Below, piece by piece: positions 22,301 to 56,700 of a stretch of 64,000 nucleotides of DNA. Each line of letters begins with the position of its first letter. Position 1 is the first letter of the stretch. Position numbers and translations under genes: made by a program. The notes beneath the pieces are model-generated. The model did no database searches, was not told the DNA's origin, and worked only from the letters and a program-made list of their open reading frames with translations. The DNA lies in NCBI GenBank assembly GCA_965198225.1, contig CBDAOY010000007.1, forward strand, positions 990,045 to 1,054,044, given 5' to 3'. This DNA is from Terriglobia bacterium. GTDB lineage: Bacteria > Acidobacteriota > Terriglobia > 20CM-2-55-15.

Positions 22301-22372
22301 GTCGTAGGCCGTAGGCAGTTGTGCGCGGGGGTCCGTTCAGCTTAACGGTCCGCGAGAGAGCCATCGTGAGGG

Positions 22373-22394
22373 GACAGGGCTAGCCCTGTCCCAG
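22373..22394. repeat. palindrome GGGGACAGGGCTAGCCCTGTCCC (member of the GGGACAGGG-N-CCCTGTCCC family)
   Basis: It is a perfect inverted repeat. Related copies are at 32163, 32301 and 40389. Confidence 0.6.
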
Positions 22395-22494
22395 GGTGTT
22401 CGCTGAGCAGAAAAGTCGGCAAACGACGGAACGCTCTCACGGACAGTTCCGTTATACTGTGATGATAGGCGCCATCTAGAACGGGGAGAAGATC

Positions 22495-25374: not shown

Positions 25375-25413
25375 CGCTCACGTAGTGGGTCAGCTTGAAT
25401 TCAAACTGAACCA

Positions 25414-25688
25414 CTAGTGACCTGTAACAGTGCTATCGGTACCAGCGTTCGGCGGAACGGCGTCGGATTCTAGGAGTGACGCCCGAGCCAATGCTGTTTC
25501 ATTGCGAGGGCGTTACGACACCGAAGACGGCGCCGTTCCGACGAACCCTTCGGGCCGATGGGGGTTGCGGGCGATCTCTTTGTCGGAAGCCGTCACCGAT
25601 GAAAGAGCATCGCTTTCCGTCTCCCTCCTCGACCTCGCCCGCAAGACCCATCGGCGATGGTGCCGATAGCACTGTTACAGGCCACTAG
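25414..25688. mobile_element. 275-bp MITE-like element, copy 1, with ~33-bp terminal inverted repeats CTAGTGRCCTGTAACAGTGCTATCGG
   Basis: The left TIR is at 25414-25447 and the right TIR at 25656-25688. The interior is highly self-complementary. A near-identical copy is at 34705-34979. Confidence 0.7.
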
Positions 25689-25760: not shown

Positions 25761-27671
25761 ATGAAAAAGAACCGTCTTCCGGTGCGTTTGCTTACCGTTG
25801 CCGCAGCCACGCTGGCGGTGATCTCTTGCAGCGGCGTTTCAGCCGACAACGAGTTTTTCGGTCGCGTGACACCGCCTGAAGGACAGGTGATGCGCTACAT
25901 TTCGGGATCCGAGCCGGAATCGCTGGATCCGCCGGTATCTTCCGGGCAGCCCGAGGCTCGCCTCTACATGGCGCTGTTCGAGGGGTTGACCGACTACAAC
26001 CCGAAGACCGCCGGTCCGATCCCGGGTGTTGCGGAGAGCTGGGAAGCCAATGCGGACAACTCCGAGTTTGTCTTCCACCTCCGTGAAGATGCCCGTTGGA
26101 GCAATGGCGAACCGGTCAGAGCCGGGGATTTCGTCTACTCCTGGCGTCGTGCGCTATCGCCGGAGCTGGCGTCCAGAAATGCCTACCTCGCCTACGACAT
26201 CAAGTACGCGCAGGCCTACAACGAGGGCGGCGTGTTCGTCCTCGATCCTGAGACCGGGGAATTTCTCCGCGCGGTGGAGACGGCCCAGGGACCGTCCGAT
26301 TCGGAAGAGAACGATGAGTCCACCGGGGACACAGCCTTTCATGTCTTCATCCAGGGACCCACCCGTCTGACGCTCCCCGGGGACGAGGAGAGTCGTCAGG
26401 CGATGTTCGACGAAGATACTGAACTGGCGGGCCGGATGGCTGGGAAGGAATTCGTTCCCGTCCAGGCCGAGAGCATCGGCATCGAAGCCGTCGACGACCA
26501 TACCTTCCGCGCGACTCTGGCTCGACCGGCGCCGTACTTTGTCGGCCTCGTGGCGCACCAGACCTTCATGCCGGTCCTCCAGTGGGTCGTCGAACAGTAC
26601 GGTGAGGCCTGGACAAAGCCGGAAAACATCGTCACGAACGGCGCTTTCAAGCTGGAATCCCGGAAGCCGTACAACGAGATCGTCATGGTTCGGGACCCGA
26701 TGTACTGGGACGCGGACGCAGTGCGTCTCGACAAGCTCATCTTCTACCCGATGGAAGACGCAACGACGATGATGAATCTCTACAAGGCCGGAGAGGTCGA
26801 TGCTGTCTTCAATCATGTCGTTCCGGTGGCCTGGCTGGATCTGATCCGCCCCCTCGCCGACTACATGGATGCGCCCGAGAACGCGGTCGGGTACTACATG
26901 TTCAACGTGACGCGACCTCCTATGGACGACATCCGGGTGCGAAAGGCCTTCAACGCGTCCATCGACAAAGAGGCCCTGGCCCAGTACCGCCGGGTGACCA
27001 AGCCGCTGACTGCCTTCAGCCCCGAGGGAATCTACCCGGGTTACCCCCAGCCGAAGGGAGACCCGTTCGATCGGGAGCGGGCACGGAAGTGGCTCGCCGA
27101 GGCGGGCTACGTCGATGCGGCGGGCAACTACGATCCTTCCACCTTTCCGATTGAAGAGGTCGAACTGACATACAACACTTCGGAAAGCAACCGGCAGGTG
27201 GCGGAGTTCATCCAGGCGCAATGGAAGCAGAACCTGGGCTTGACGGTTCCGCTCAAGAACATGGAATGGAAGACATTCCTGGTTGTACGGGCGGCGCTGG
27301 ACTACAAGGGCATCGGGCGTGCCGGCTGGGTCGGCGACTACATGGATCCGTTTACTTTCCTCAATATCTTCTACACCGCCGGAGGGGACAACGGCACTGG
27401 CTGGTGGGACCCGGAATACGTGCGTTTGCTCGACGAGGCGAACACGACGCTGGATCCGGCGCGACGTTACGAACTGCTCGCTGAAGCCGAAGCATACATG
27501 CTCGCGGCACAGCCGATCATCCCGTTCGAGACCAACGCGACAAACTGGATGAAGAAGCCCTACGTGAAAGGTATGTATCCGAACCCGGGGACCCTCCATG
27601 CCTGGAAGTTCGTCTACATCGAACATGATCCGGCGAAATGGGACAGCGGCGTGCCGGATATGAGTCAGTAG
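25761..27671 (+). CDS. ABC peptide transporter substrate-binding lipoprotein (family 5, OppA/DppA-like)
   Basis: It has the lipobox LAVISC and an SBP_bac_5 signature region. Confidence 0.85.
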   Translation: MKKNRLPVRLLTVAAATLAVISCSGVSADNEFFGRVTPPEGQVMRYISGSEPESLDPPVSSGQPEARLYMALFEGLTDYNPKTAGPIPGVAESWEANADNSEFVFHLREDARWSNGEPVRAGDFVYSWRRALSPELASRNAYLAYDIKYAQAYNEGGVFVLDPETGEFLRAVETAQGPSDSEENDESTGDTAFHVFIQGPTRLTLPGDEESRQAMFDEDTELAGRMAGKEFVPVQAESIGIEAVDDHTFRATLARPAPYFVGLVAHQTFMPVLQWVVEQYGEAWTKPENIVTNGAFKLESRKPYNEIVMVRDPMYWDADAVRLDKLIFYPMEDATTMMNLYKAGEVDAVFNHVVPVAWLDLIRPLADYMDAPENAVGYYMFNVTRPPMDDIRVRKAFNASIDKEALAQYRRVTKPLTAFSPEGIYPGYPQPKGDPFDRERARKWLAEAGYVDAAGNYDPSTFPIEEVELTYNTSESNRQVAEFIQAQWKQNLGLTVPLKNMEWKTFLVVRAALDYKGIGRAGWVGDYMDPFTFLNIFYTAGGDNGTGWWDPEYVRLLDEANTTLDPARRYELLAEAEAYMLAAQPIIPFETNATNWMKKPYVKGMYPNPGTLHAWKFVYIEHDPAKWDSGVPDMSQ

Positions 27672-27683
27672 CGTGAGGCCCAA

Positions 27684-27735
27684 TGTCCAAAGTCCGAGGT
27701 TCAAAGTCCGAGGTCCAAAGTCCAAGGTCGAATGT
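27684..27735. repeat. tandem ~15-bp repeat (GTCCAAAGTCCGAGG, 3.5 copies) between oppA and oppB
   Basis: Seen directly in the sequence. Confidence 0.6.
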
Positions 27736-27791
27736 CTGGAGATCAGTTAATGACGTCGGACAGTGGACTTCGGACCGTGGACTGATTCCCG

Positions 27792-28712
27792 ATGTTGCAT
27801 TTCATAATCCGCCGACTGATGGTGACGCTGCCGATGGTCCTGGTTGTCGTGTCGCTGACCTGGGCTTTGATCCGGCTGGCTCCCGGCAACTTCTACACGG
27901 GCGAGAAGCCGATTCCCCCAGCGATCGAAGCAAACCTCCGCGCCAAGTACGGGCTCGACCAGCCTTGGTACGTCCAGTACGGGAAGATGATCAGCAACAC
28001 GCTGAGGGGGGACTTCGGAAACTCGTTGCGATACCAGGGACAGTCGGTGAACGAGATCCTGGCTGCCTCGCTGCCGGTGTCGGCGGGGATTGGCTTCGCG
28101 GCATACCTGCTGGCCCTTCTCATCGGCGTGCTCGTCGGCACGGTCTCGGCGGTCAAACAGAATTCCAGCATGGACTACACGTCGATGGGCTTTGCCATGG
28201 TCGGCATCTCTGTGCCCAACTTCGTTCTCGGACCGATTCTGGTGCTGGCGTTCGCACTGACGCTGTTCTGGCTGCCTCCGGCCCGGTGGGAAGGCTTTTT
28301 CAGTGTCCATACCATTCTGCCCGTGATCACGCTGTCCGCAGTCTACATGGCCTACATCGCCCGGCTTGCGAGATCGGGAATGCTCGAGGTACTCCGATCC
28401 AACTACATCCGAACCGCGCGGGCCAAGGGTTTGGATGAGAAAACCGTCGTTGTGCGGCATGGCCTGAGGGGTGGACTGCTGCCCGTCGTTTCGTTCTCGG
28501 GTCCGGCTCTGGCCCTGCTCATATCGGGCACCGTAGTCGTCGAGCGCATTTTCGCGCTGCCGGGATTGGGAAACTATTTCATCAACGCCAACCTCAACCG
28601 CGATGAACCGTTGATCATCGGAATCGTCGCGTTTATGTCGATCTCGATCCTGATCTTCAATCTGCTGGTCGACATCGCGTATGGATTCCTGGACCCCAGG
28701 GTGAGGTATTGA
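27792..28712 (+). CDS. ABC peptide transporter permease (OppB/DppB-like)
   Basis: It has a BPD_transp_1 membrane domain. Confidence 0.85.
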   Translation: MLHFIIRRLMVTLPMVLVVVSLTWALIRLAPGNFYTGEKPIPPAIEANLRAKYGLDQPWYVQYGKMISNTLRGDFGNSLRYQGQSVNEILAASLPVSAGIGFAAYLLALLIGVLVGTVSAVKQNSSMDYTSMGFAMVGISVPNFVLGPILVLAFALTLFWLPPARWEGFFSVHTILPVITLSAVYMAYIARLARSGMLEVLRSNYIRTARAKGLDEKTVVVRHGLRGGLLPVVSFSGPALALLISGTVVVERIFALPGLGNYFINANLNRDEPLIIGIVAFMSISILIFNLLVDIAYGFLDPRVRY

Positions 28713-28898
28713 AGAAGTTATGCGTAGGCCGTTATCCGTTGTCGGAAGAGGAGCTACCAACTCACAACGACGTACCAACGGCCTACGGCCTACTGAACCG
28801 AGGAAGTTATGAGTAGTCAGCTGTCAGTAGTCAGTTTTGGGAAAGGGATGGCGTACCGCCCAACGGCCTACGGACAACGGCTTACGACTTATTGACGA
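28713..28898. repeat. intergenic REP/MITE-like repeats inside the opp operon (GTAGGCCGTTATCCG / CAACGGCCTACGG family plus two AGTAGTCAG units)
   Basis: The motifs are shared with 9749-10246 and 8365-8421. Confidence 0.6.
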
Positions 28899-29837
28899 AT
28901 GTCCCAGGTTACCGAAACCGAAGTTGTGGCCGGAACGTCCTTGTGGCGCGACGCATGGCGCCGCCTGCTTCGCAACAGGTTGGCCGTCATCGGCATGACT
29001 TTCGTCGCCTTGATCGTTCTCGCGTCGATCGTCGGCCCACCGATCATCGAGGCGACAACCGGTTTCACGTACGACTACATACCGGCTGATTCCTCGCAGA
29101 TTCGATCGTTCCCGCCATTCACGGCGCCTGACGGTTCCTTTTCCCTGACTCACCCGATGGGAACCGACGAGGCGGGGCGGGACATCCTCGCGAGAGTTCT
29201 GTTGGGCGGGCGAATCTCTCTCATGGTCGGAAGCATTTCGACGATCGTGTCCCTGCTCATCGGTGTGACATACGGGGCGACGGCCGGTTACGTGGGCGGC
29301 CGGGTCGATGACGGGATGATGCGCATCGTCGACGTGCTCTACGCGATTCCATACATGATGGTTGTGATCGTCCTGCTGGCTTTCTTCGGAGGTCAGTCGC
29401 CGCTGGGTCAGTTGTTTCTGTTGTTCTTCGCTCTCGGCGCCGTGTCGTGGCTGACGATGGCCCGAATCGTGCGGGGACAGGTGATCTCGTTGAAGAACCA
29501 GGAATTCGTCCTCGCCGCGCGCGCCGGGGGCGTGTCGACTCCAAAGATCATCTTCAGGCATCTCGTTCCGAACACGCTCGGACCGGTCGTCGTCTACGCG
29601 ACGTTAACGATCCCGTCCGTCATGCTGCTCGAGGCGTTCCTGTCTTTCCTGGGTCTCGGTGTCCAGGCTCCGCTCGCCTCGTGGGGGAGTCTCGCCGCGG
29701 ACGGCATCCGAAACATCGCCGTCTTCCCGTGGCAGCTGATCTTTCCCGGAGTGACGATGGCCGCGACGCTGTTCTCGTTGAACTTCATGGGTGACGGGCT
29801 CCGGGACGCCTTGGATCCGCAGATGCGAAAGATGTAA
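28899..29837 (+). CDS. ABC peptide transporter permease (OppC/DppC-like)
   Basis: It has a BPD_transp_1 membrane domain and an N-terminal OppC-type extension. Confidence 0.85.
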   Translation: MSQVTETEVVAGTSLWRDAWRRLLRNRLAVIGMTFVALIVLASIVGPPIIEATTGFTYDYIPADSSQIRSFPPFTAPDGSFSLTHPMGTDEAGRDILARVLLGGRISLMVGSISTIVSLLIGVTYGATAGYVGGRVDDGMMRIVDVLYAIPYMMVVIVLLAFFGGQSPLGQLFLLFFALGAVSWLTMARIVRGQVISLKNQEFVLAARAGGVSTPKIIFRHLVPNTLGPVVVYATLTIPSVMLLEAFLSFLGLGVQAPLASWGSLAADGIRNIAVFPWQLIFPGVTMAATLFSLNFMGDGLRDALDPQMRKM

Positions 29838-29978
29838 GCACGGATTACACGGATGGACTTACACATACAGGAGGAAGACAAGCCACGGATTGCACGGATT
29901 ACACGGACAGGAAGAAGCCCGTGGTCTGCATTCCGAAAAGACTACTCCTAATCCGTTAAATCCGTGTAATCCGTGGCT
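29838..29978. repeat. CACGGATTACACGGA repeat cluster (direct and inverted copies) between oppC and oppD
   Basis: Copies are at 29839-29855, 29884-29909 and 29951-29976. The flanking inverted repeats are GCCACGGATT / AATCCGTGGC. Confidence 0.6.
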
Positions 29979-31034: not shown

Positions 31035-32122
31035 GAGACATGGCTGAAAGCGCAACAGGACCGGACGTGGCCCACAACGGAACGCTTCTCTCGATCCGGG
31101 ATCTCAAGGTGCATTTCGATCTGGGCGGCGGAACCCTGTGGGATAGGGCCACAGGGGGGAGTCCGGTCCGGCGCGTCGTCAAGGCTGTCGACGGTGTGAC
31201 CATCGACATCCGCGCCGGCGAGACCCTGGGCCTGGTCGGAGAATCCGGATGCGGCAAGTCCACCCTCGGGCGTGCGCTGCTACGTTTGGAAGAGCCGACT
31301 GCCGGCGCGGTCGTTTTTCGCGGAGTGGACCTCCGCGGCCTGGCGCCGGCCGCGATGCGCGAGCAGCGGCGTCATCTGCAGATGATTTTCCAGGATCCGT
31401 ACGCGTCCCTGAACCCGCGCATGACGGTCGGGCAGATCGTCTCGGAGCCGATCGAGACCTTCGGACTGGCATCCGGCGCGGAAAAGGCCGGCCGGGTGAA
31501 TGAGCTGATGGAAACGGTCGGGCTCAGCCAGAGGTTCGTCAAGCGGTACCCGCACGAGTTCTCCGGCGGACAGCAACAGCGCATCGGCATCGCGCGCGCA
31601 CTGGCGGCCAATCCTGATTTCATTGTCGCCGACGAGCCCATATCGGCCCTGGACGTGTCGATCCAGGCGCAGATCATCAACTTGATCGAGCGGTTGCGCC
31701 GGGAACGAAACCTGACATACCTGTTCATCTCACACGATCTCCGCGCTATCCGGCACACTGCCGATCGCGTCGCGGTGATGTATCTGGGAAAGCTCGTCGA
31801 GCTGGGTGACGCCGAGACTCTCTACAACGACCCGCTCATGCCGTACACGAAGGCGCTGATCTCGGCGGTTCCCATTCCCGACCCCGAACGGGAGTTGGCG
31901 CGCGAGCGTGTCGTGCTGGAAGGTGACGTTCCGTCCCCCATCAACCCGCCCTCTGGCTGTCGCTTCCACACCCGCTGTCCTTATGCCATCCACGCTTGCA
32001 GGGAGAACGTGCCTGAGCTCGTCGAAATCAAGCCGGACCACATGGCCGCGTGCATCCGGATCAGTTCCGAGCAGCCCGACATCGACGGGGTTGCGCCTGA
32101 TTCGGCCCCGGGACTTGGTTGA
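31031..32122 (+). CDS. ABC peptide transporter ATP-binding protein (OppF/DppF-like)
   Basis: It has [17 protein letters not shown] and the C-terminal Cys cluster C..C...C. Confidence 0.9.
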
Positions 32123-32143
32123 GAAATTCCTGTCTGAAAAGTT

Positions 32144-32400
32144 TTGGGTAAGTAGACACCCGAGGACAGGGCTATACCCCTGTCCCCCTCACATTGGCTC
32201 TTTCACGGACTTTTCGCGTAGCGACCGGAAAACCCTCTGTGCCTCCGCGCCTTTGCGGTGAGATCGCCGCTCTGAAGAGTTCTGCGTAAGCAGACACCCG
32301 GGGACAGGGCTATACCCCTGTCCCCCTCACATTGGCTCTCTCACGGACATCCCGCGTAACGACAGGAAAACCCTCCGTGCCTCCGCGCCTCCGTGGTTAG
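32144..32400. repeat. two tandem ~139-bp repeat units in the convergent intergenic region. Each contains the palindrome GGGACAGGGCTATACCCCTGTCCCC.
   Basis: Unit A (32144-32282) aligns with unit B (32283-32400) at about 88% identity. Confidence 0.7.
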
Positions 32401-33713
32401 TCTTCTTTCATCACCAGTGTTTTTGCGTGTTTCGAGCGGAACAGGTAGGCCACGTAGCCGAGGGTGAGCGTGGCGATTCCGGTCAGAGTCGAGATCGGTT
32501 GGGACTGGATGCTCCACACGGTGATCCAGAGGGCAAAGATCGTGAAGATCAGCGGCGGGATGGGGTAGCCGATACAGATGCGGTGAGTGGAGCGGCCGGA
32601 TCGGCGGAGGCGGAACAGGCTGATCACCGTCAGCGCCGCAAAAATGTTCAGAGTGAAACCGATGTAGATCAGCAACGCGGTGAACGACGACGTCAGCGCA
32701 ATCAGCACCGCAAGGGTTGCCTGGAAGAACACGGCGAAACTGGGGACATTCCGATGATTGAGTCTGCCGAAACGCTCGGGAAGAAACCCGTCCCGGGCCA
32801 TGGCCTCGGCGACGCGCGGGCCGGTCAGGAGCATGGCGCTGATCGGAGCGATCAGGGTCACGGCGATCAAGGTCGACACGAGCCGCCCGCCCTCGGGTCC
32901 CCAGACGGTCCTCGCGACGAGGTAGCCGACTTCTTCGACGCCGGAGAGTTCCTCGAGTCCTACGGATCGCAAAAAGGAAAGGTTGACGAGAAAATACAGG
33001 AGCGTGACGCCGCCCGCGCCCCATAGCAAAGAGCGAGGCAGGTTGCGCTCCGGCCGATCGATCTCCGTCCCGATGTATGCCGCAGCATTCCAACCGCTGT
33101 AGGCGAACGAGATGAACACAAGAACGACCGCGAACGACGACGAGGTCCAGAATCCGGGATTGAACGTCAGGGGGGACCCCGACCTGACGTCCGGTCCGGC
33201 GAAGAGGATGCCGAACACGAACGCCAGGAGCAGGAGCACCTTGATGGCGATCATGATGGTCTGTACCCGGCTTCCGAGTTTCAGATCATATGCGTGGAGC
33301 AGGGCGAGCAACAGAATCGTTCCCGCCGCCATCCCCCGGACGGGCCAGTTCGGCAAAATGGTGCCGACGTAGAGATGCATGGCCATGGCCGATGCTGCGA
33401 TCGGGGCGGCAAACCCGACGATCAGGGAAACCCAGCCGGAAATGAAACCTGCGGCCGGGTGGAGAAGCCGGCTCAGATAATGGTATTCGCCGCCCGAGGC
33501 CGGGAAGTGTGCACCGATCTCCCCGTAACAGAGGGCGCCGCACAGGGCGATTGCGCCGCCGACCAGCCACCCGAGGAGAATGTCGCCGCCTTCGGCACCC
33601 ATGGACACCATCAACCCGGTCGTCGTGAAGATGCCGGTGCCGATCATGCTCGAGACGACGATCGCCGAAGCCGGTATCGCGCCCAGAACACGGCGGTTTT
33701 CGGTGTCTCTCAC
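32397..33713 (-). CDS. APC-family amino acid permease
   Basis: It has 12 TM helices and the N-terminal motif SSMIGTGIF. Confidence 0.85.
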   Translation of the reverse strand: MRDTENRRVLGAIPASAIVVSSMIGTGIFTTTGLMVSMGAEGGDILLGWLVGGAIALCGALCYGEIGAHFPASGGEYHYLSRLLHPAAGFISGWVSLIVGFAAPIAASAMAMHLYVGTILPNWPVRGMAAGTILLLALLHAYDLKLGSRVQTIMIAIKVLLLLAFVFGILFAGPDVRSGSPLTFNPGFWTSSSFAVVLVFISFAYSGWNAAAYIGTEIDRPERNLPRSLLWGAGGVTLLYFLVNLSFLRSVGLEELSGVEEVGYLVARTVWGPEGGRLVSTLIAVTLIAPISAMLLTGPRVAEAMARDGFLPERFGRLNHRNVPSFAVFFQATLAVLIALTSSFTALLIYIGFTLNIFAALTVISLFRLRRSGRSTHRICIGYPIPPLIFTIFALWITVWSIQSQPISTLTGIATLTLGYVAYLFRSKHAKTLVMKED

Positions 33714-34683: not shown

Positions 34684-34704
34684 CCCAGACCGCTGCGGAG
34701 CATC

Positions 34705-34979
34705 CTAGTGACCTGTAACAGTGCTATCGGTACCAGCGTTCGGCGGAACGGCGTCGGATTCTAGGAGTGACGCTCGAGCCAATGCTGTTTCATTGCGAGG
34801 GCGTTGCGACACCGAAGACGGCGCCGTTCCGCCGAACCCTTCGGGCCGATGGGGGTTGCGGGCGATCTCTTTGTCGGAAGCCGTCACCGATGAAAGAGCA
34901 TCGCTTTCCGTCTCCCTCCTCGACCTCGCCCGCAAGACCCATCGGCGATGGTGCCGATAGCACTGCTACAGGCCACTAG
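34705..34979. mobile_element. 275-bp MITE-like element, copy 2
   Basis: It is about 97% identical to 25414-25688, with the same TIRs. Confidence 0.7.
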
Positions 34980-37194: not shown

Positions 37195-37489
37195 GTGTGG
37201 GTGCGCTCTATATGAGCGCACATCGTTTCGGCTCAAAGAATGTGCGGTCATAGACCGCAGCTACACCTATCGCAAATTGCGATATTTGAAAGAATCCACA
37301 TTGCAGGTTGCTCATTGGAGATTGTTTCATTTTAGATTTCCGACCAATAAGAAATCGAGCAATTTGCAATCTCCAAATTTCCAATGCGGAATCGTCCAAT
37401 GACCAATCTGCAATAGCTGTCAGACGAGGTCCCAGCCACCTCCCTCGATCGAGTAGAATGTGCGGTCATAGAGCGCACCTACACTTCCA
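37195..37489. repeat. AT-rich repeat element with internal palindromes (GTGCGCTCTATATGAGCGCAC) and direct repeats (AGAATGTGCGGTCATAGAsCGCA)
   Basis: The core TTGCAGGTTGCTCATTGGAGATTGTTTCA has a ~75%-identical copy at 23160-23225. Confidence 0.55.
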
Positions 37490-40340: not shown

Positions 40341-40388
40341 ATCGCTCTTCCTATTGTATGCGACAGGGGAGGATGTTGTGATTTCTGG

Positions 40389-40424
40389 ATAAAATAGGGA
40401 CAGACTCCTGTGTCCCTATTTTAT
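40389..40424. repeat. inverted repeat ATAAAATAGGGACAG-N-CTGTGTCCCTATTTTAT
   Basis: It shares the GGGACAG...CTGTCCC core with the palindrome family. It sits at the promoter of the glycosyltransferase pair. Confidence 0.5.
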
Positions 40425-40448
40425 CGGCAACATTTTGAACCACTTAAA

Positions 40449-45254: not shown

Positions 45255-45588
45255 TTATCCCGGGCGTCGACGCATCTCTTCCCGGGTGATGAATCCATCA
45301 TCGTCCGCGTCGAGGCGGTCGAAGGCCTCAGTCGGTCGGGTCCACTCGTCACGAGAAACCTTGCCGTCGCCGTCTTCATCCATCTGGAGCATCGCGGCTC
45401 CCCGGCCACGTCCGCCTCTGCCCGGGCGGGAGTTCTGCATCTCTTCGAGAGTGATGAAGCCGTCGCCATCGGCGTCCATGGTCTCGAACATCTGCGCGGG
45501 ACCCGGAAACTCCTGCTGCGACACGCGTCCATCGCCATCGCTGTCGAGCCCCTGGAAACGGGCTTGAGGGTCTGCGCCTCTTCCGCCT
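45255..45588 (-). repeat. downstream copy of an exact ~310-bp tandem duplication. It encodes a now out-of-phase extra EF-hand segment (...DADDDGFITREEMRRRPG*).
   Basis: Region 45301-45590 is 100% identical to 45611-45900. At the junction the upstream copy carries 2-bp and 7-bp deletions, which create a TAG stop at 45589-45591. Confidence 0.7.
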
Positions 45589-46746
45589 CTATCCCGGGCG
45601 TCGCCATCTCTTCCCGAATCCATCATCGTCCGCGTCGAGGCGGTCGAAGGCCTCAGTCGGTCGGGTCCACTCGTCACGAGAAACCTTGCCGTCGCCGTCT
45701 TCATCCATCTGGAGCATCGCGGCTCCCCGGCCACGTCCGCCTCTGCCCGGGCGGGAGTTCTGCATCTCTTCGAGAGTGATGAAGCCGTCGCCATCGGCGT
45801 CCATGGTCTCGAACATCTGCGCGGGACCCGGAAACTCCTGCTGCGACACGCGTCCATCGCCATCGCTGTCGAGCCCCTGGAAACGGGCTTGAGGGTCTGC
45901 GCCTCTTCCGCCTCTGCCGCGGCCGCCCCCGAATTGCCGCTGGATTTCGTCACGAGCGAGGAGACCATCATCGTTTCGATCGAGCCGGTCGAACGTCTCG
46001 CCGTCGCCCGTCCACTCTTCCCGTGAGATTGTACCGTCCTCGTTCGTGTCCATGACGCCCATACCGCCCGCAGTCCCGGGCCTCTGCCCCGGCCGAGGGC
46101 GCATACCACGCATGCCGCGGCCGCGACGCTGTCCCTGTTCCTGTCCGTAGGCGGTGATCTCCCCTCTGAGAGCGACCTCGAGCGCTGCCCTGGCTTCGGG
46201 GACATCGAACCCGGCCGGCCCGGGGCGTCCCTTGAAGGCGATGGTGCCGTCGGAGCCCACGACATAGATCCGGTCGGGAAACGCGGCGTACGCATTCGCC
46301 GTCCGGTCGTCGATCTTGTCCAGAATGGTCGGCATCGAGATGTCCAAGGCGGTCGTACAGATGTTGGCTGCTTCCTGGCGCTGCTCGTCGGTTTTGGCTT
46401 GTTCGATCAGGATGCCGTCGATAACATTCGCCGCTCCGAGGTTGCCGTCGGTGGGATGCGCTTCTCGAATGTAGACGAAGAAGAAATTGGCGCGGTCCTT
46501 GTAAGCCTGGTACCAGTTTTCGATGTCCACGACATCGCGGCGGAACGGGCCTCAGGTATAGCTGGCGAAGATCAGCGCGGTCGGTCTGCCCGTCATCTCA
46601 GAAAGCGTAATCTTTTGCTTTCCGTCTTTTGTACTGAGCGTGAAATCAGGCGCCGTATCTCCAGGCGTGGGGCCGCCGCCTCGCCGCTGGGCCGTGGCAG
46701 GGCTCACCAGGACGAGGACCAATAACGCAGACGCGAATGTTCTCAT
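45589..46746 (-). CDS. selenoprotein: iodothyronine-deiodinase-like thioredoxin-fold domain (Sec encoded by UGA at 46552-46554) fused to a C-terminal EF-hand repeat array; secreted
   Basis: It has a signal peptide (MRTFASALLVLVLVSPATAQ) with a GGAGGA RBS. APDFTL...RPTALIFASYT-[TGA]-GPFRRD...FFFVYIREAHPTDG matches the deiodinase motifs FGSxT-U-PPF and FLxVYIxEAHPSDGW. The hairpin GAUGUC-GUGG-GACAUC lies 15 nt after the UGA. There are at least six DxDxDG EF-hand loops. Confidence 0.7.
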
Positions 46747-53751: not shown

Positions 53752-56700
53752 TCTGATTTCAGAACTCGGGGGAGAAATGATCCATGGGGATAAGAACATG
53801 CCCAACAATGGCGGCACGCGGGTACCGCTGATAGTCAGCGTTCCAGGAGGTGAGGGGGGACGGGTGTTCGACGACCTGATCGACTTCACCGACTTTCTCC
53901 CGACTCTGGCTGATGCGGCAGGTCTTACGATTCCTGACGTCAATATGCTGGACGGCGTGAGTTTTTGGGACAGGCTTCAAGGCCGAACCGGCCAACCGCG
54001 GGAATGGATATATACCTATTACTTCCCACGTCCGTTCGCCGATAGGTTCGACAATCCGCAACGTCATCCAGAGGCGTCGTATGTCCGAGACAAGCGGTAC
54101 CAGCTCTACGGAACAGGAGAGTTCTTCGACATTTCCGTAGACCCTCACCAAGTGCATCCGTTGCCGAGTGACGATGAAGAGTCCAGCGCCGCCCGTACCA
54201 AGCTGCAAGCGGTTCTCGACTCGATGCCGGGGAGAGGTGAGGAGATTTACCCATATTTGATAGGAACTGTCCCGGACTCTGAGCCGCGCCCGCGATGGCG
54301 GCCCGTCCTGTCGAAAGCAACTGTGAACGGCGGCCAATTGACGCTCACTTACGCCGGAATTCTGGACTCAAGAGAAGCGCCTCCCGCAGATTCCTTCATT
54401 GTGAACGTTGATGGTTCCGAGCGTGCGGTCTCCACAGTTTCGATAAGCAAAACAGCGGTTACGCTTACACTCGCTTCGGCGGTTACAGTTGGCCAGACGG
54501 TGACGTTGAATTACACGCCGGGAACGAATGCGATTCAGCACGCGAACAGGCCATTCGGGCACAAAGCGGCACCCCTGGTTCGCCAAGGGGTGACGAACAA
54601 CACTGTGGACACGACGGCGCCGGCGGTGTTGTCGATCACGAGCGACGCGACGCACCCGACGAAGAACGCTTTCACGGTGACGATAACCTTTTCGGAGGAG
54701 GTGAGGGGACTCACGGCGGGGGAGATCGCGGTCACCAATGGCACGGGCTCGAACTTTGCGGGCACAGGCGCGAGCTACATGCTCGACATCGAACCCAGCG
54801 ACGATATCGAAGCCGACGTGACGGTCCGGGTTCCGGCCGATGCGGCGATGGACGCCGCGAACCTCGGCAACATCGAGGGGATCGAGACCTTCGCGGTGGA
54901 CACCCAGGCGCCGGCGGTGTTGTCGATCACGAGCGACGCGACACACCCGACGAAGGATGCTTTCAGGGTGACGATCACCTTTTCGGAGGCGGTGACGGAG
55001 CTCACGTCGCAGGATATCGCGGTCATGAACGGAGTGGGCTCGAACTTCGCGGGCACGGACGCGCGCTACACGCTCGACATCGAGCCCAGCGCCAATACCG
55101 AAGACGATGTGACGGTCCGGGTTCGGGCCAACGCGGCGGTGGACGGCGTGAACATCGGCAACGTCGAGGGGATCGAAACCTTTGCGGTGGACACCCAGGT
55201 GCCGAGGGTGTTGTCGATCACAAGCGACGCGGCGCACCCGACGAAGGATACTTTCACGGTAACGATCACCTTTTCGGAAGAGGTGACGGGGCTGACGGCG
55301 AGTGAGATCGTGGTCAGCAATGGCCGTGGCTCGAACTTCGCGGGCACGGGCGCACGCTACACGCTCGACATCGCTCCGAACGCCAACCTTGAAGCCGATG
55401 TGACGGTCCGGGTTCGAGCCAACGCGGCGGTGGACGGCGCGAACAACAGCCACGTCGACGAGGGCGAGACCTTCGCTGTGGACACGCGGGCACCGGTGTT
55501 GATGAGCGCTGCGGTGGATGGCGACACGCTGACGCTGAGCTATGGGGAGGCGCTGGGCAACCCGACACCGGAGCCGGGCGATTTCACGATGAATGTGGAG
55601 AGCGCTGGGCGGAGCGTTTCCAGGGTGGCGGTGAGCGGAAGAGCGGTGACTTTGACGCTTGCCTCGGCCGTGGCGCATGGCGAGACGGTGAGAGTGAGCT
55701 ACAGCCCGGGGACGAACCCGATCCAGGACGCGGTGGGCAACCAGGCTCTGGGACTGAGCAACGCGTCGGCCACCAACACTACGGATGCACCCAACACGGA
55801 TCCGATGATCACGAGTCCGGGGCCGTTCAATGTCACTGAGAATCAAGCGCGGGTGACCCGGCTGATGGCGGCCGACGCCGACCCGGGGGACGAGGTCACC
55901 GGCTATACGCTTGTCGGCGGAGCCGATCGGGCCCAGTTCACGGTCGGTGAGGATACCGGAGATCTGGGCTTCCGGGCGGTTCCGAACTTTGAAGCGCCCA
56001 CGGATGCCTTCAGTAACGATCCGCCAAGTGGGGCAGGAGACAACGAGTACATCGTGGTGGTCCAGGTCAGCAGCGGGGCAGGAACGCGGGTGCGGACGGC
56101 GGAACAGACGATTCGCGTGCGGGTGAGTGACGTGGAGGAGCTTCCAGCGGCGCCGGAGGAGCCGACTTTTCCGAGGGCGACGCCGGACAGCCTGACGGTG
56201 GCGTGGACGGAGCCGGACAACACCGGGCCGCCCATCACCGGCTATGACGTGCAATACCGGGAAGGCGTCAGCGGCGGCTTCACGGATGCGCCGCACTCCG
56301 GGACGGCCCAAACCACAACGCTCATGGGGTTGAGCGAGGGCACGGCCTACCAGGTGCAGGTGCGGGCGAGGAACGCGGAAGGAACAGGTGACTGGTCGGA
56401 GCCGGGCGAAGGACGGACCGTGGCCCCGCTGAGGGTTCGGATGACGCCGGAGCTGGAGCCGCCGGTGGAGGGCCCGTTCTCGGTGAGGTTCAGCTTTTCG
56501 GAGACGGTGACGGGTTTCAGCGGAAGCGACATCGAGACGGGTCAGGACCTTGCCTGCATGGACGATCAGAACAACCCGGTGTTCTGCAACCCCGGCTTTG
56601 CGGCATTCGAGACCACGGATAGCCGGGTCTTCACCACCCGCGTGACCCCGAGGACCGGCGGGGTGGCCAATAACTACAAGCTCACGCTCACGGTGCGTGC

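What the first reader, a model, noticed from the sequence alone, without database searches (positions are those of the whole stretch)
32144..32400. 139-bp tandem repeat pair carrying the GGGACAGGG-N-CCCTGTCCC palindrome; family also present at 22373 and 40389
The repeats lie in the convergent gap between oppF and the APC permease. Each unit contains the perfect palindrome GGGACAGGGCTATACCCCTGTCCCC plus a second GC-rich stem (CCTCCGCGCCT...). A shorter perfect palindrome of the same family (GGGGACAGGGCTAGCCCTGTCCC) lies upstream of the sufT-like gene. A related inverted repeat (AAAATAGGGACAG...CTGTGTCCCTATTTT) lies at the promoter of the arsenosugar-like glycosyltransferase pair. The motif could be a dimeric-regulator operator, a REP element, or a small structured RNA gene present in tandem.
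Basis: seen in the sequence. Interest (0 to 1): 0.5.

Follow-up and report, generated by a model that had tools for sequence, protein, structure and literature searches.

The report
REP-like hairpin repeat, tandemly duplicated
The tandem repeat is two copies of a roughly 75-base intergenic hairpin element, one member of a small dispersed repeat family in an uncultured Terriglobia (Acidobacteriota) lineage; it is best read as a REP-type repeat, an ordinary kind of bacterial genome furniture, not an operator or a small-RNA gene.

Summary
Window 32123-32398 holds two head-to-tail 138-bp units (90% identical) in the convergent gap between oppF and an APC permease. Each unit carries the GGACAGGG/CCCTGTCC hairpin.

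A third copy lies at 22349-22420 on the minus strand, and its homology runs about 25 nt beyond the palindrome on each side. The 40389 palindrome is unrelated. The 'second GC stem' is a CCTCCGYG octamer microsatellite whose copy number varies between strains.

The conserved unit is about 75 nt: TTCTGCTCAGC-AACACCC-GGGGACAGGG-loop-CCCTGTCCCC-CTCACA-TGGCTCTCTCACGGAC.
- It recurs in intergenic DNA of related Terriglobia MAGs and a few marine contigs.
- It lies in either orientation relative to genes.
- The stem sequence is invariant, the loop is 4-8 nt, and there is no covariation or second helix.
- There is no Rfam match.

At the oppF gap, relatives with 87-94% identical permease have one copy. 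Its core is 66/68 identical although 4-fold sites are about 68% identical. More distant relatives lack it. At the sufT site the unit is inverted between relatives.

Best reading: a REP/BIME-like repeat with a GTGAG rather than GTAG tag, probably mobilised by a RAYT-like Y1 transposase and kept as a 3' hairpin. No such transposase was found in the DNA I could reach.

The parts
32123..32260 (+). Tandem unit 1 (138 bp): about 77-nt family core (32133-32209) plus a 51-nt tail ending in GCGCCTTTGCGGTGAG
   Evidence: TRF; nhmmer E=1.5e-20; alignment
32164..32185 (+). Hairpin of unit 1: GGACAGGG / CTATAC / CCCTGTCC, an 8-bp perfect stem. The 5' arm reads GAGGACAGGG, so the outer pairs are weakened.
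   Evidence: RNA -15 kcal/mol
32261..32398 (+). Tandem unit 2 (138 bp): family core (32271-32347) plus a tail that runs into the permease stop codon
   Evidence: It is orthologous to the single unit in L113, L115 and L116.
32300..32325 (+). Hairpin of unit 2: GGGGACAGGG / CTATAC / CCCTGTCCCC, a perfect 10-bp stem
   Evidence: RNA -21.7 kcal/mol on +, -23.7 on -; DNA -11.4/-12.2
32372..32395 (+). CCTCCGYG octamer microsatellite (x3). Copy number varies between strains.
   Evidence: TRF; 5, 3 and 2 copies in L109, L110 and L111
22349..22420 (-). Third family copy (core only) between the M28 peptidase stop and the sufT-like (FeS_assembly_P) start. It is antisense to both genes. Hairpin GGGACAGGG/CTAG/CCCTGTCCC at 22371-22392.
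   Evidence: nhmmer E=1.3e-17. It is inverted relative to the copy at the same site in L115 and L116.
22433..22453 (+). Remnant of the 3' block (GCTCTCACGGACAGTTCCGTT) of a forward-oriented unit. It forms a short inverted repeat with the 3' block of the inverted unit at about 22340-22357.
   Evidence: Comparison with L113, L115 and L116
31031..32122 (+). oppF-like ABC ATPase gene, left flank (the source called it as 351 aa)
32397..33713 (-). APC-family amino-acid permease gene, right flank

Best explanation
The repeat is a local tandem duplication of one member of a lineage-specific, dispersed, non-coding hairpin repeat family of the REP/BIME kind.

The family unit is about 75 nt. It has a 9-10-bp GC-rich stem of fixed sequence (GGGGACAGGG/CCCTGTCCCC), a free loop of 4-8 nt, and conserved unpaired flanks. 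These are AACACCC on the 5' side and CTCACA..GGCTCTCTCACGGAC on the 3' side. Read on the other strand, the stem is preceded by GTGAG.

Proposed mechanism, with the status of each step:
1. Shown: copies sit in intergenic DNA at unrelated loci, in both orientations, and differ in presence, number and orientation between relatives.
2. Inferred: new copies arise when the hairpin forms in single-stranded DNA and is cut and joined in trans by a RAYT-like HUH/Y1 transposase. This is how GTAG-tagged REPs behave, and acidobacterial RAYT-like genes carry their own hairpin repeats.
3. Inferred: established copies are kept by the host because the transcribed hairpin (-22 to -24 kcal/mol on either strand) sits 40-140 nt after stop codons. 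There it can block 3' exonucleases and readthrough between neighbouring genes. That would explain why the oppF-gap copy is far better conserved than neutral sites.
4. Shown: in the window's lineage a 138-bp segment (core plus octamer tail) was duplicated head-to-tail, and the CCTCCGYG octamers keep slipping.
For: Family and dispersal:
- Three copies lie in the window, and homologous copies in Terriglobia MAG loci L005 (x2), L039, L058 (x2), L102 and L113-L116. Weaker core-only matches occur in marine contigs L104-L108.
- All copies lie outside called genes.
- Contexts: 3 convergent, 3 tandem (2 sense, 1 antisense), 1 divergent.

Hairpin, not operator or RNA fold:
- The stem is invariant in 21 copies while the loop varies (CTATAC, CTAG, CCAGG, CCAAGGGA, CCAGGGCG, CAAG).
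- RNAalifold finds only this helix on either strand, with 0 compensatory pairs.

Turnover:
- The oppF gap holds 2 units in the window, L109, L110 and L111, and 1 unit in L113, L115 and L116.
- It holds none in L121 (permease 80% identical) or L122 (74%).
- The sufT-site unit is inverted in the window relative to L115 and L116, although the flanks are 86% identical. It is half-deleted in L113, with the breakpoint inside the hairpin.

Constraint:
- The core is 66/68 identical between the window and L115/L116, while 4-fold sites of the flanking genes are 67-70% identical.
- Other intergenic gaps do not align by blastn.
- Copies cluster by locus, not by genome.

RAYT link (indirect):
- Hairpins with the same GGACAGGG/CCCTGTCC stem and a GTAG tag directly flank Y1_Tnp genes in L081 and L101 (Pfam E=4e-10 and 2e-15), and in L071 (tblastn only).
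- The RAYT-like gene of Acidobacterium capsulatum is preceded by a 72-bp x3.6 tandem array of hairpin units.
- The RAYT-like gene of Terriglobus saanensis is flanked by perfect 35-nt hairpin-bearing inverted repeats.
- Di Nocera et al. 2013 (PMC3733652) describe such RAYT-like 'TIRYT' genes as a sharply defined acidobacterial group, with a GGGGWSAS motif in some of the flanking repeats. GGGGACAG fits that motif.
Against: - No Y1/RAYT-like gene was found in the roughly 200 kb of DNA held from this lineage. The only nearby IS200-like remnant (L003) has different hairpins.
- The canonical unpaired GTAG or CGTC tag is absent.
- Copies in the window and in L005 are head-to-tail. REP dimers are typically head-to-head or tail-to-tail (PMC3733652).
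- There is no clean empty site, so insertion has not been shown directly.
- The strong conservation of flanks and of orthologous copies would also fit a purely host-encoded protein-binding element.
- Most copies were found with patterns that require the stem sequence, so the invariance of the stem is partly an ascertainment effect. However, L113o, L115s, L116s and L005b were found without that requirement, and all but L005b keep the stem.
Confidence: 0.62

Rival explanations
1. A host-encoded cis element with no mobility of its own. The hairpin and its conserved flanks would be a binding site on RNA or DNA for a host protein (an RNase or RNA chaperone, a nucleoid or gyrase-type protein), or a U-tract-independent terminator. 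It would spread only by occasional segmental duplication and be kept by purifying selection.
For: - The orthologous oppF-gap copy is 66/68 identical against about 68% at neutral sites.
- Copies cluster by locus rather than by genome.
- The stem sequence and the single-stranded flanks are conserved, not just the pairing.
- Copies lie 40-140 nt after stop codons in 6 of 7 contexts.
- No transposase was found.
Against: - The same 75-nt unit occurs at unrelated loci, in both orientations, including one divergent promoter region (L058).
- The unit is inverted in place at the sufT site, and is absent from the oppF gap in the 80% relative.
- There is no T-run after the hairpin on either strand.
- This reading does not exclude the best explanation. 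It mainly denies the transposase step.
Confidence: 0.22
2. Two tandem genes for a small structured regulatory RNA of about 130 nt.
For: - The 278-nt region folds better than shuffles (z = -4.0 on + and -4.9 on -).
- The tail carries three CCUCC motifs (GGAGG on the other strand) that could mimic or sequester Shine-Dalgarno sequences. This is sequence reading only.
Against: - There is no Rfam family at the gathering threshold. The only hit at E<=10 is RT-13, at 15 bits against a cutoff of 69.
- The consensus fold of 12 copies is the single hairpin, with zero covariation.
- There is no promoter-like site or terminator-like tail.
- Relatives have a single unit with a different, shorter tail. The CCTCC octamers are a length-variable microsatellite absent from L115 and L116.
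- Other family copies lie antisense to neighbouring genes.
Confidence: 0.06
3. An operator for a dimeric transcription factor that recognises the GGGACAGGG half-sites.
For: The palindrome is perfect and the half-site sequence is invariant. One copy lies upstream of sufT and one lies in a divergent region.
Against: - Half-site spacing varies from 4 to 8 nt between copies, and even between orthologous sites. That is incompatible with a fixed dimer geometry.
- Most copies lie between convergent genes or just after stop codons.
- Neighbouring genes have unrelated functions (opp, permease, M28 peptidase, lexA, E1 dehydrogenase, thyX, LMW phosphatase).
- The conserved flanks are asymmetric.
Confidence: 0.03
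4. A MITE derived from a DDE-transposase insertion sequence, like the 277-bp element seen elsewhere in the window.
For: The lineage is rich in IS elements and holds a genuine MITE with 30-bp terminal inverted repeats.
Against: The 75-nt unit has no terminal inverted repeats beyond a weak 6-nt match and no recognisable target-site duplication. The only inverted repeat is the central hairpin.
Confidence: 0.05

Closest known systems
REP / BIME elements (GTAG-tagged repetitive extragenic palindromes of Proteobacteria and other phyla) with their RAYT (TnpA-REP) transposases
   Same: - A short GC-rich palindrome in intergenic DNA, mostly after genes and between convergent genes.
- Many dispersed copies in either orientation.
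- Clusters and tandem copies whose number varies between strains.
- A conserved unpaired motif next to the stem foot.
- Hairpins with the identical GGACAGGG/CCCTGTCC stem flank Y1_Tnp genes in other phyla.
   Different: - The tag is GTGAG, not GTAG.
- About 25 nt of conserved sequence lie on each side, giving a 75-nt unit.
- Copies are head-to-tail rather than REP/iREP pairs.
- No cognate RAYT has been located.
- Copy number is unknown.
Hairpin/TIR repeats flanking RAYT-like 'TIRYT' genes of Acidobacteria (Di Nocera et al. 2013, PMC3733652)
   Same: - Same class (Terriglobia).
- Repeats lack GTAG.
- The A. capsulatum gene is preceded by a 72-bp x3.6 head-to-tail array of hairpin units, and the family here forms a 70-bp x2 array in L005.
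- GGGGACAG fits the published GGGGWSAS motif.
   Different: - There is no sequence homology between those units (CCCACATCTC.., CCCATGTCCG.. stems next to GGGGCACCC) and this one.
- Here the repeat is seen away from any transposase gene.
Untagged stem-loop repeat families and intergenic VNTRs (for example MIRU of mycobacteria, SNR/SRE of Deinococcus, BOX/RUP/Correia-type elements). This comparison rests on general knowledge; only the first two are mentioned as 'untagged' in PMC3733652.
   Same: Lineage-specific intergenic units of 40-150 bp, with hairpins and variable tandem copy number.
   Different: Sequences are unrelated. Several of those families have terminal inverted repeats or coding potential, which this one lacks.

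Membership tests
REP (repetitive extragenic palindrome) | Small palindrome of 20-50 nt able to form a stem-loop | tested here: met
   A 9-10-bp perfect stem with a 4-8-nt loop, 22-30 nt in total. DNA -10 to -12 kcal/mol, RNA -21 to -24 kcal/mol. Definition from PMC8266576.
REP (repetitive extragenic palindrome) | Conserved unpaired tetranucleotide GTAG (or CGTC) at one end of the palindrome | tested here: not met
   The stem is followed by CTCAC (GTGAG on the other strand) in 16 of 21 aligned copies. There is no GTAG or CGTC. GTGAG may be a variant tag, but that has not been shown.
REP (repetitive extragenic palindrome) | Extragenic, mostly downstream of genes or between convergent genes | tested here: met
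   All copies lie outside called genes. Contexts are 3 convergent, 3 tandem and 1 divergent.
REP (repetitive extragenic palindrome) | High copy number per genome (hundreds) | tested here: inconclusive
   There are 2 loci (3 units) in the 64-kb window. At least 5 loci of MAG CBDAPB01 carry the exact stem, and 4 of them (L005, L039, L058, L102) align with the family beyond the hairpin. Only 5 hits came from the metagenome contigs and 0 from viral contigs.
REP (repetitive extragenic palindrome) | Cognate RAYT/TnpA-REP gene flanked by the repeats (REPtron) | not testable with these tools
   There was no Y1_Tnp hit in the roughly 200 kb of lineage DNA held. The rest of the genome could not be fetched. 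Same-stem GTAG REPs do flank Y1_Tnp genes in three other phyla.
BIME | REP and inverted REP pairs separated by a linker, repeated in tandem | tested here: not met
   The window units, and those of L005, are head-to-tail. No inverted partner lies in the gap.
MITE | Terminal inverted repeats and target-site duplication | tested here: not met
   There are no terminal inverted repeats in the 8- and 21-copy alignments. No empty site is available for judging a duplication.
Any Rfam RNA family | Covariance-model score at or above the gathering threshold | tested here: not met
Intrinsic (Rho-independent) terminator | GC-rich hairpin followed by a T-run | tested here: not met
   There is no T-run after the hairpin on either strand. 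The consensus scan does not list it.
Dimeric transcription-factor operator | Inverted half-sites at fixed spacing, near promoters of a coherent regulon | tested here: not met
   Spacing is 4-8 nt, most copies are at 3' ends, and the neighbouring genes are unrelated.

The most novel reading that the evidence does not exclude
The 75-nt unit is not just selfish DNA but a host-selected functional module. One form of this reading is a sequence-specific protein-binding 3'-UTR or DNA element. Another is a short invertible segment: at the sufT site the unit lies between short inverted copies of its own 3' block and is found in opposite orientations in relatives. In either form its orientation or copy number would tune expression of neighbouring genes in this uncultured Terriglobia lineage.
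Probability: 0.12. Interest if true: 0.55.

Novelty: new member of a known kind. Interest (0 to 1): 0.3.

Why it matters
Mostly for annotation and housekeeping. It explains a conspicuous repeat, and it removes a false operator and small-RNA lead.

It also adds an acidobacterial family that lacks the GTAG tag to the catalogue of REP-like repeats, and that phylum is poorly covered there.

Two points have modest wider interest:
- The same GGACAGGG stem serves as a RAYT-flanking REP in several distant phyla.
- The copy at the oppF gap is much better conserved than neutral sites, which argues that some copies have been put to use by the host.

Tried and rejected
- Rfam at gathering and at E<=10: nothing usable.
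- Multi-helix RNA structure: RNAalifold on both strands gives only the hairpin, with 0 covariation.
- DNA-uptake-sequence idea: single arms (GGGACAGG) occur only 4 times in 64 kb, about the chance level, so there is no enrichment outside the pairs.
- Search for a Y1/RAYT gene near the copies: tblastn used IS200 TnpA (sequence recalled from memory) and eight RAYT/TIRYT sequences taken from the supplement of PMC3733652. Hits came only in non-Terriglobia loci, plus one unrelated IS200-like remnant in L003.
- Profile search with acidobacterial TIRYTs: 8000 or more homologues. None of the 120 listed came from the contigs of this lineage.
- Flanks of three acidobacterial RAYT-like genes: they show analogous but not homologous hairpin repeats.
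- Metagenome scan for the family-specific pattern gave only 5 contigs. The viral scan gave none.
- Clean empty site in the 80% and 74% relatives: the gap is too diverged or is disrupted by an IS.
- A single inversion to explain the sufT-site rearrangement: no single event fits.

Full report
**What is there**

Window 32123-32398 is the whole 274-bp gap between a + strand ABC ATPase gene (ABC_tran + oligo_HPY, oppF-like, stop at 32120-32122) and a - strand APC-family permease gene (stop at 32397-32399). Tandem Repeats Finder reports a 138-bp period, 1.9 copies and 90% matches.

Each unit carries GGACAGGG-CTATAC-CCCTGTCC. The pattern with a 1-14-nt loop occurs three times in the window against 0.00 expected. 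Unit 2 has a perfect 10-bp stem. Unit 1 has a G-to-A change, which leaves 8 perfect pairs. The hairpin is stable as RNA on either strand (-21.7 and -23.7 kcal/mol) and as DNA (-11.4 and -12.2 kcal/mol).

**Family membership inside the window**

A profile built from the two units finds a third copy at 22346-22420 on the minus strand. It aligns from about 25 nt before the hairpin to about 25 nt after it. This copy lies between an M28 peptidase gene and a FeS_assembly_P (sufT-like) gene, both on the + strand, so it is antisense to both.

The palindrome at 40388-40425 is a perfect 15-bp AT-rich stem in a divergent promoter region. It shares only GGGACA with the family, the profile does not detect it, and it is degenerate in the closest relative. 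It is not a member.

**Origin of the window**

The permease protein is 100% identical to one on a 2.78-Mb ENA long-read metagenome contig (L110). The window is 99.99% identical to that locus over 14.9 kb. Its first 1.8 kb is 96% identical to a Terriglobia MAG, CBDAPB01. More distant relatives come from marine samples, including a TARA scaffold.

**The family elsewhere**

Most of these belong to a different, widespread class, GTAG-GGACAGGGCTAAAGCCCTGTCC-CTAC. It occurs in Brocadiales, Zixibacteria, Chloroflexota, Omnitrophota, Planctomycetota and others.

Homology to the window's unit beyond the hairpin was found only in Terriglobia MAG loci: L005 (two tandem copies, 70-bp period), L039, L058 (one full and one partial copy) and L102. 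A family-specific pattern found five marine metagenome contigs that share ACACCCGG-stem-CCCTCAC, and no viral contig.

The consensus unit is TCNCGAAC-TTT-CTGCT-A-C-AACACCC-GGGGACAGGG-loop-CCCTGTCCCC-CTCACATTGGCTCTCTC-CGG.

**Structure**

Across 21 copies the ten stem pairs are 96% paired, with no compensatory change. The loop differs in sequence and in length, from 4 to 8 nt. RNAalifold on 12 full-length copies predicts only this helix on either strand. Rfam has no match.

A fixed stem sequence with a free loop length points to a hairpin in single-stranded nucleic acid that is read in a sequence-specific way. It does not point to a duplex operator for a dimer, nor to a multi-helix RNA.

One caveat applies. 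Most copies were found with patterns that require the stem. The copies found only by profile or by synteny (L113o, L115s, L116s) also keep it, and L005b is a decayed copy.

**Context**

The seven sites I could classify are as follows:
- Three convergent gaps: oppF/permease, L058b and L102.
- Three same-direction gaps: L005 (smr to lexA, sense), L039 (sense) and window 22349 (antisense).
- One divergent gap: L058a.

Where a gene ends nearby, the hairpin lies 40-140 nt past the stop codon. No T-run follows the hairpin.

**Comparison of orthologous sites**

The oppF/permease gap was recovered from seven relatives:
- Near-identical strains (L109, L110, L111) have the two units but 5, 3 and 2 octamers.
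- The 94% relative (L113, L114) has one unit next to the permease. It also has an unrelated insert of about 215 bp built from inverted arrays of GCGCAAAG octamers.
- The 90% and 87% relatives (L115, L116) have one unit with a short tail.

So the single unit is ancestral. The 138-bp duplication is specific to the window's lineage.

The core (32280-32347) is 66/68 identical to L115 and L116, whereas 4-fold degenerate sites of oppF and the permease are 67-70% identical. Other intergenic gaps in the block fail to align by blastn. Flank identities group copies by locus, not by genome. This argues for constraint on the individual copy rather than family-wide homogenisation.

In the 80% relative (L121) and the 74% relative (L122) the gap has no family copy.

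At the sufT site, L115 and L116 carry the unit in the opposite orientation to the window, although the flanks are 86% identical. The window also keeps a remnant of the 3' block of a forward-oriented unit. L113 has lost the left half of the unit, through a deletion that ends inside the hairpin and truncates the peptidase gene.

**Link to Y1 transposases**

REPs are defined as 20-50-nt palindromes preceded by a conserved tetranucleotide, usually GTAG. They are mostly intergenic, are often clustered, and are associated with a single-copy RAYT gene (PMC8266576; PMC3733652).

Among the loci fetched by the stem pattern, three carry a RAYT-like gene directly flanked by GTAG-tagged hairpins with the same GGACAGGG/CCCTGTCC stem. 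They are L081 and L101 (Pfam Y1_Tnp) and L071 (tblastn only).

Di Nocera et al. describe a sharply defined acidobacterial group of RAYT-like 'TIRYT' genes, flanked by non-GTAG repeats. Some of those repeats share GGGGWSAS, which GGGGACAG fits. I fetched two of these genes:
- In A. capsulatum the gene is preceded by a 72-bp x3.6 head-to-tail array of hairpin units.
- In T. saanensis the gene is flanked by perfect 35-nt hairpin-bearing inverted repeats.

The architecture matches the family here, but the sequences are not homologous. No Y1 gene was found in the roughly 200 kb of this lineage's DNA that I could reach. The transposase step therefore remains an inference.

**Verdict**

I file it as working like a REP/BIME element, but not as a proven member of the GTAG or CGTC superfamilies. 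The defining tag is not met, and the cognate RAYT could not be tested.

The most likely history has three steps:
1. A hairpin unit was inserted in the ancestor of the clade with at least 87% permease identity.
2. It was retained under constraint as a 3' hairpin between convergent genes.
3. It was then duplicated in tandem together with part of an octamer array.

This is a new member of a known kind and is of modest interest.

Noticed in passing
window 25412-25688 and 34702-34979: A 277-bp MITE with about 30-bp terminal inverted repeats (CTAGTGACCTGTAACAGTGCTATCGG...) bounded by CTAG. The two copies are about 98% identical. Three more copies lie in L113. The element is absent from the same sites in L115 and L116, so it is recently mobile.
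   Followed up: partly
window 29881-29977 and 27685-27783; L113 11460-11676; L122 4436-4560: Intergenic 'array hairpins': inverted arrays of short tandem repeats, for example (CACGGATT)n ... (AATCCGTG)n and (GCGCAAAG)n/(GCGCAGAG)n with their complements. They form long imperfect hairpins in several gaps of the opp operon. The CCTCCGYG tail of the 138-bp unit looks like half of one.
   Followed up: partly
window 40388-40425: A perfect 15-bp stem GATAAAATAGGGACA / 8 nt / TGTCCCTATTTTATC (RNA -22.5 kcal/mol, z = -5.5). It sits in a divergent region between a small signal-peptide ORF (start near 40343, - strand) and a GT2 glycosyltransferase gene. It is unrelated to the family and is degenerate in L113, where the MITE sits beside it.
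   Followed up: partly
L007, L010, L011, L015-L020, L023-L027, L029, L032, L034, L036 and many other loci: A near-identical REP pair (GTAGGGACAGACCTTCAGGTCTGTCC ... GGACAGGGCTAAAGCCCTGTCCCTAC) recurs in MAGs of many phyla: Brocadiales, Zixibacteria, Chloroflexota, Gemmatimonadota, Planctomycetota and Omnitrophota. RAYT-like Y1_Tnp genes are flanked by such hairpins in L081, L101 and L071. The breadth suggests horizontally spread REPtrons.
   Followed up: partly
L113 21038-21317: In the 94% relative a deletion joins the middle of the M28 peptidase gene to the right arm of the sufT-site hairpin, so the breakpoint lies inside the palindrome.
   Followed up: no
L109, L110, L111 against window 27400-29000 and 37300: Near-identical strains (over 99.8% identical) differ by IS insertions (DDE_Tnp_1/DUF4372, IS3-type) in and around the opp operon. 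The population is rich in IS elements.
   Followed up: no
L117 2731-2987; L119 2853-2887 and 3484-3518: The Acidobacterium capsulatum RAYT-like gene is preceded by a 72-bp x3.6 tandem array of hairpin units (CCCACATCTCG.CGAGATGTGGG). The Terriglobus saanensis gene is flanked by perfect 35-nt inverted repeats, each holding a hairpin. All share GGGGCACCC next to the stem.
   Followed up: partly
window 45291-45915 and 54605-55496: Long tandem repeats: 325 bp x1.9 at 100% identity, and 291 bp x3.1 at 84%. They probably lie inside coding sequence (a repeat-domain protein). Not examined.
   Followed up: no
window 37196-37267: A further short dispersed repeat: blastn matches to two places in L058 at 87-92% identity.
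   Followed up: no
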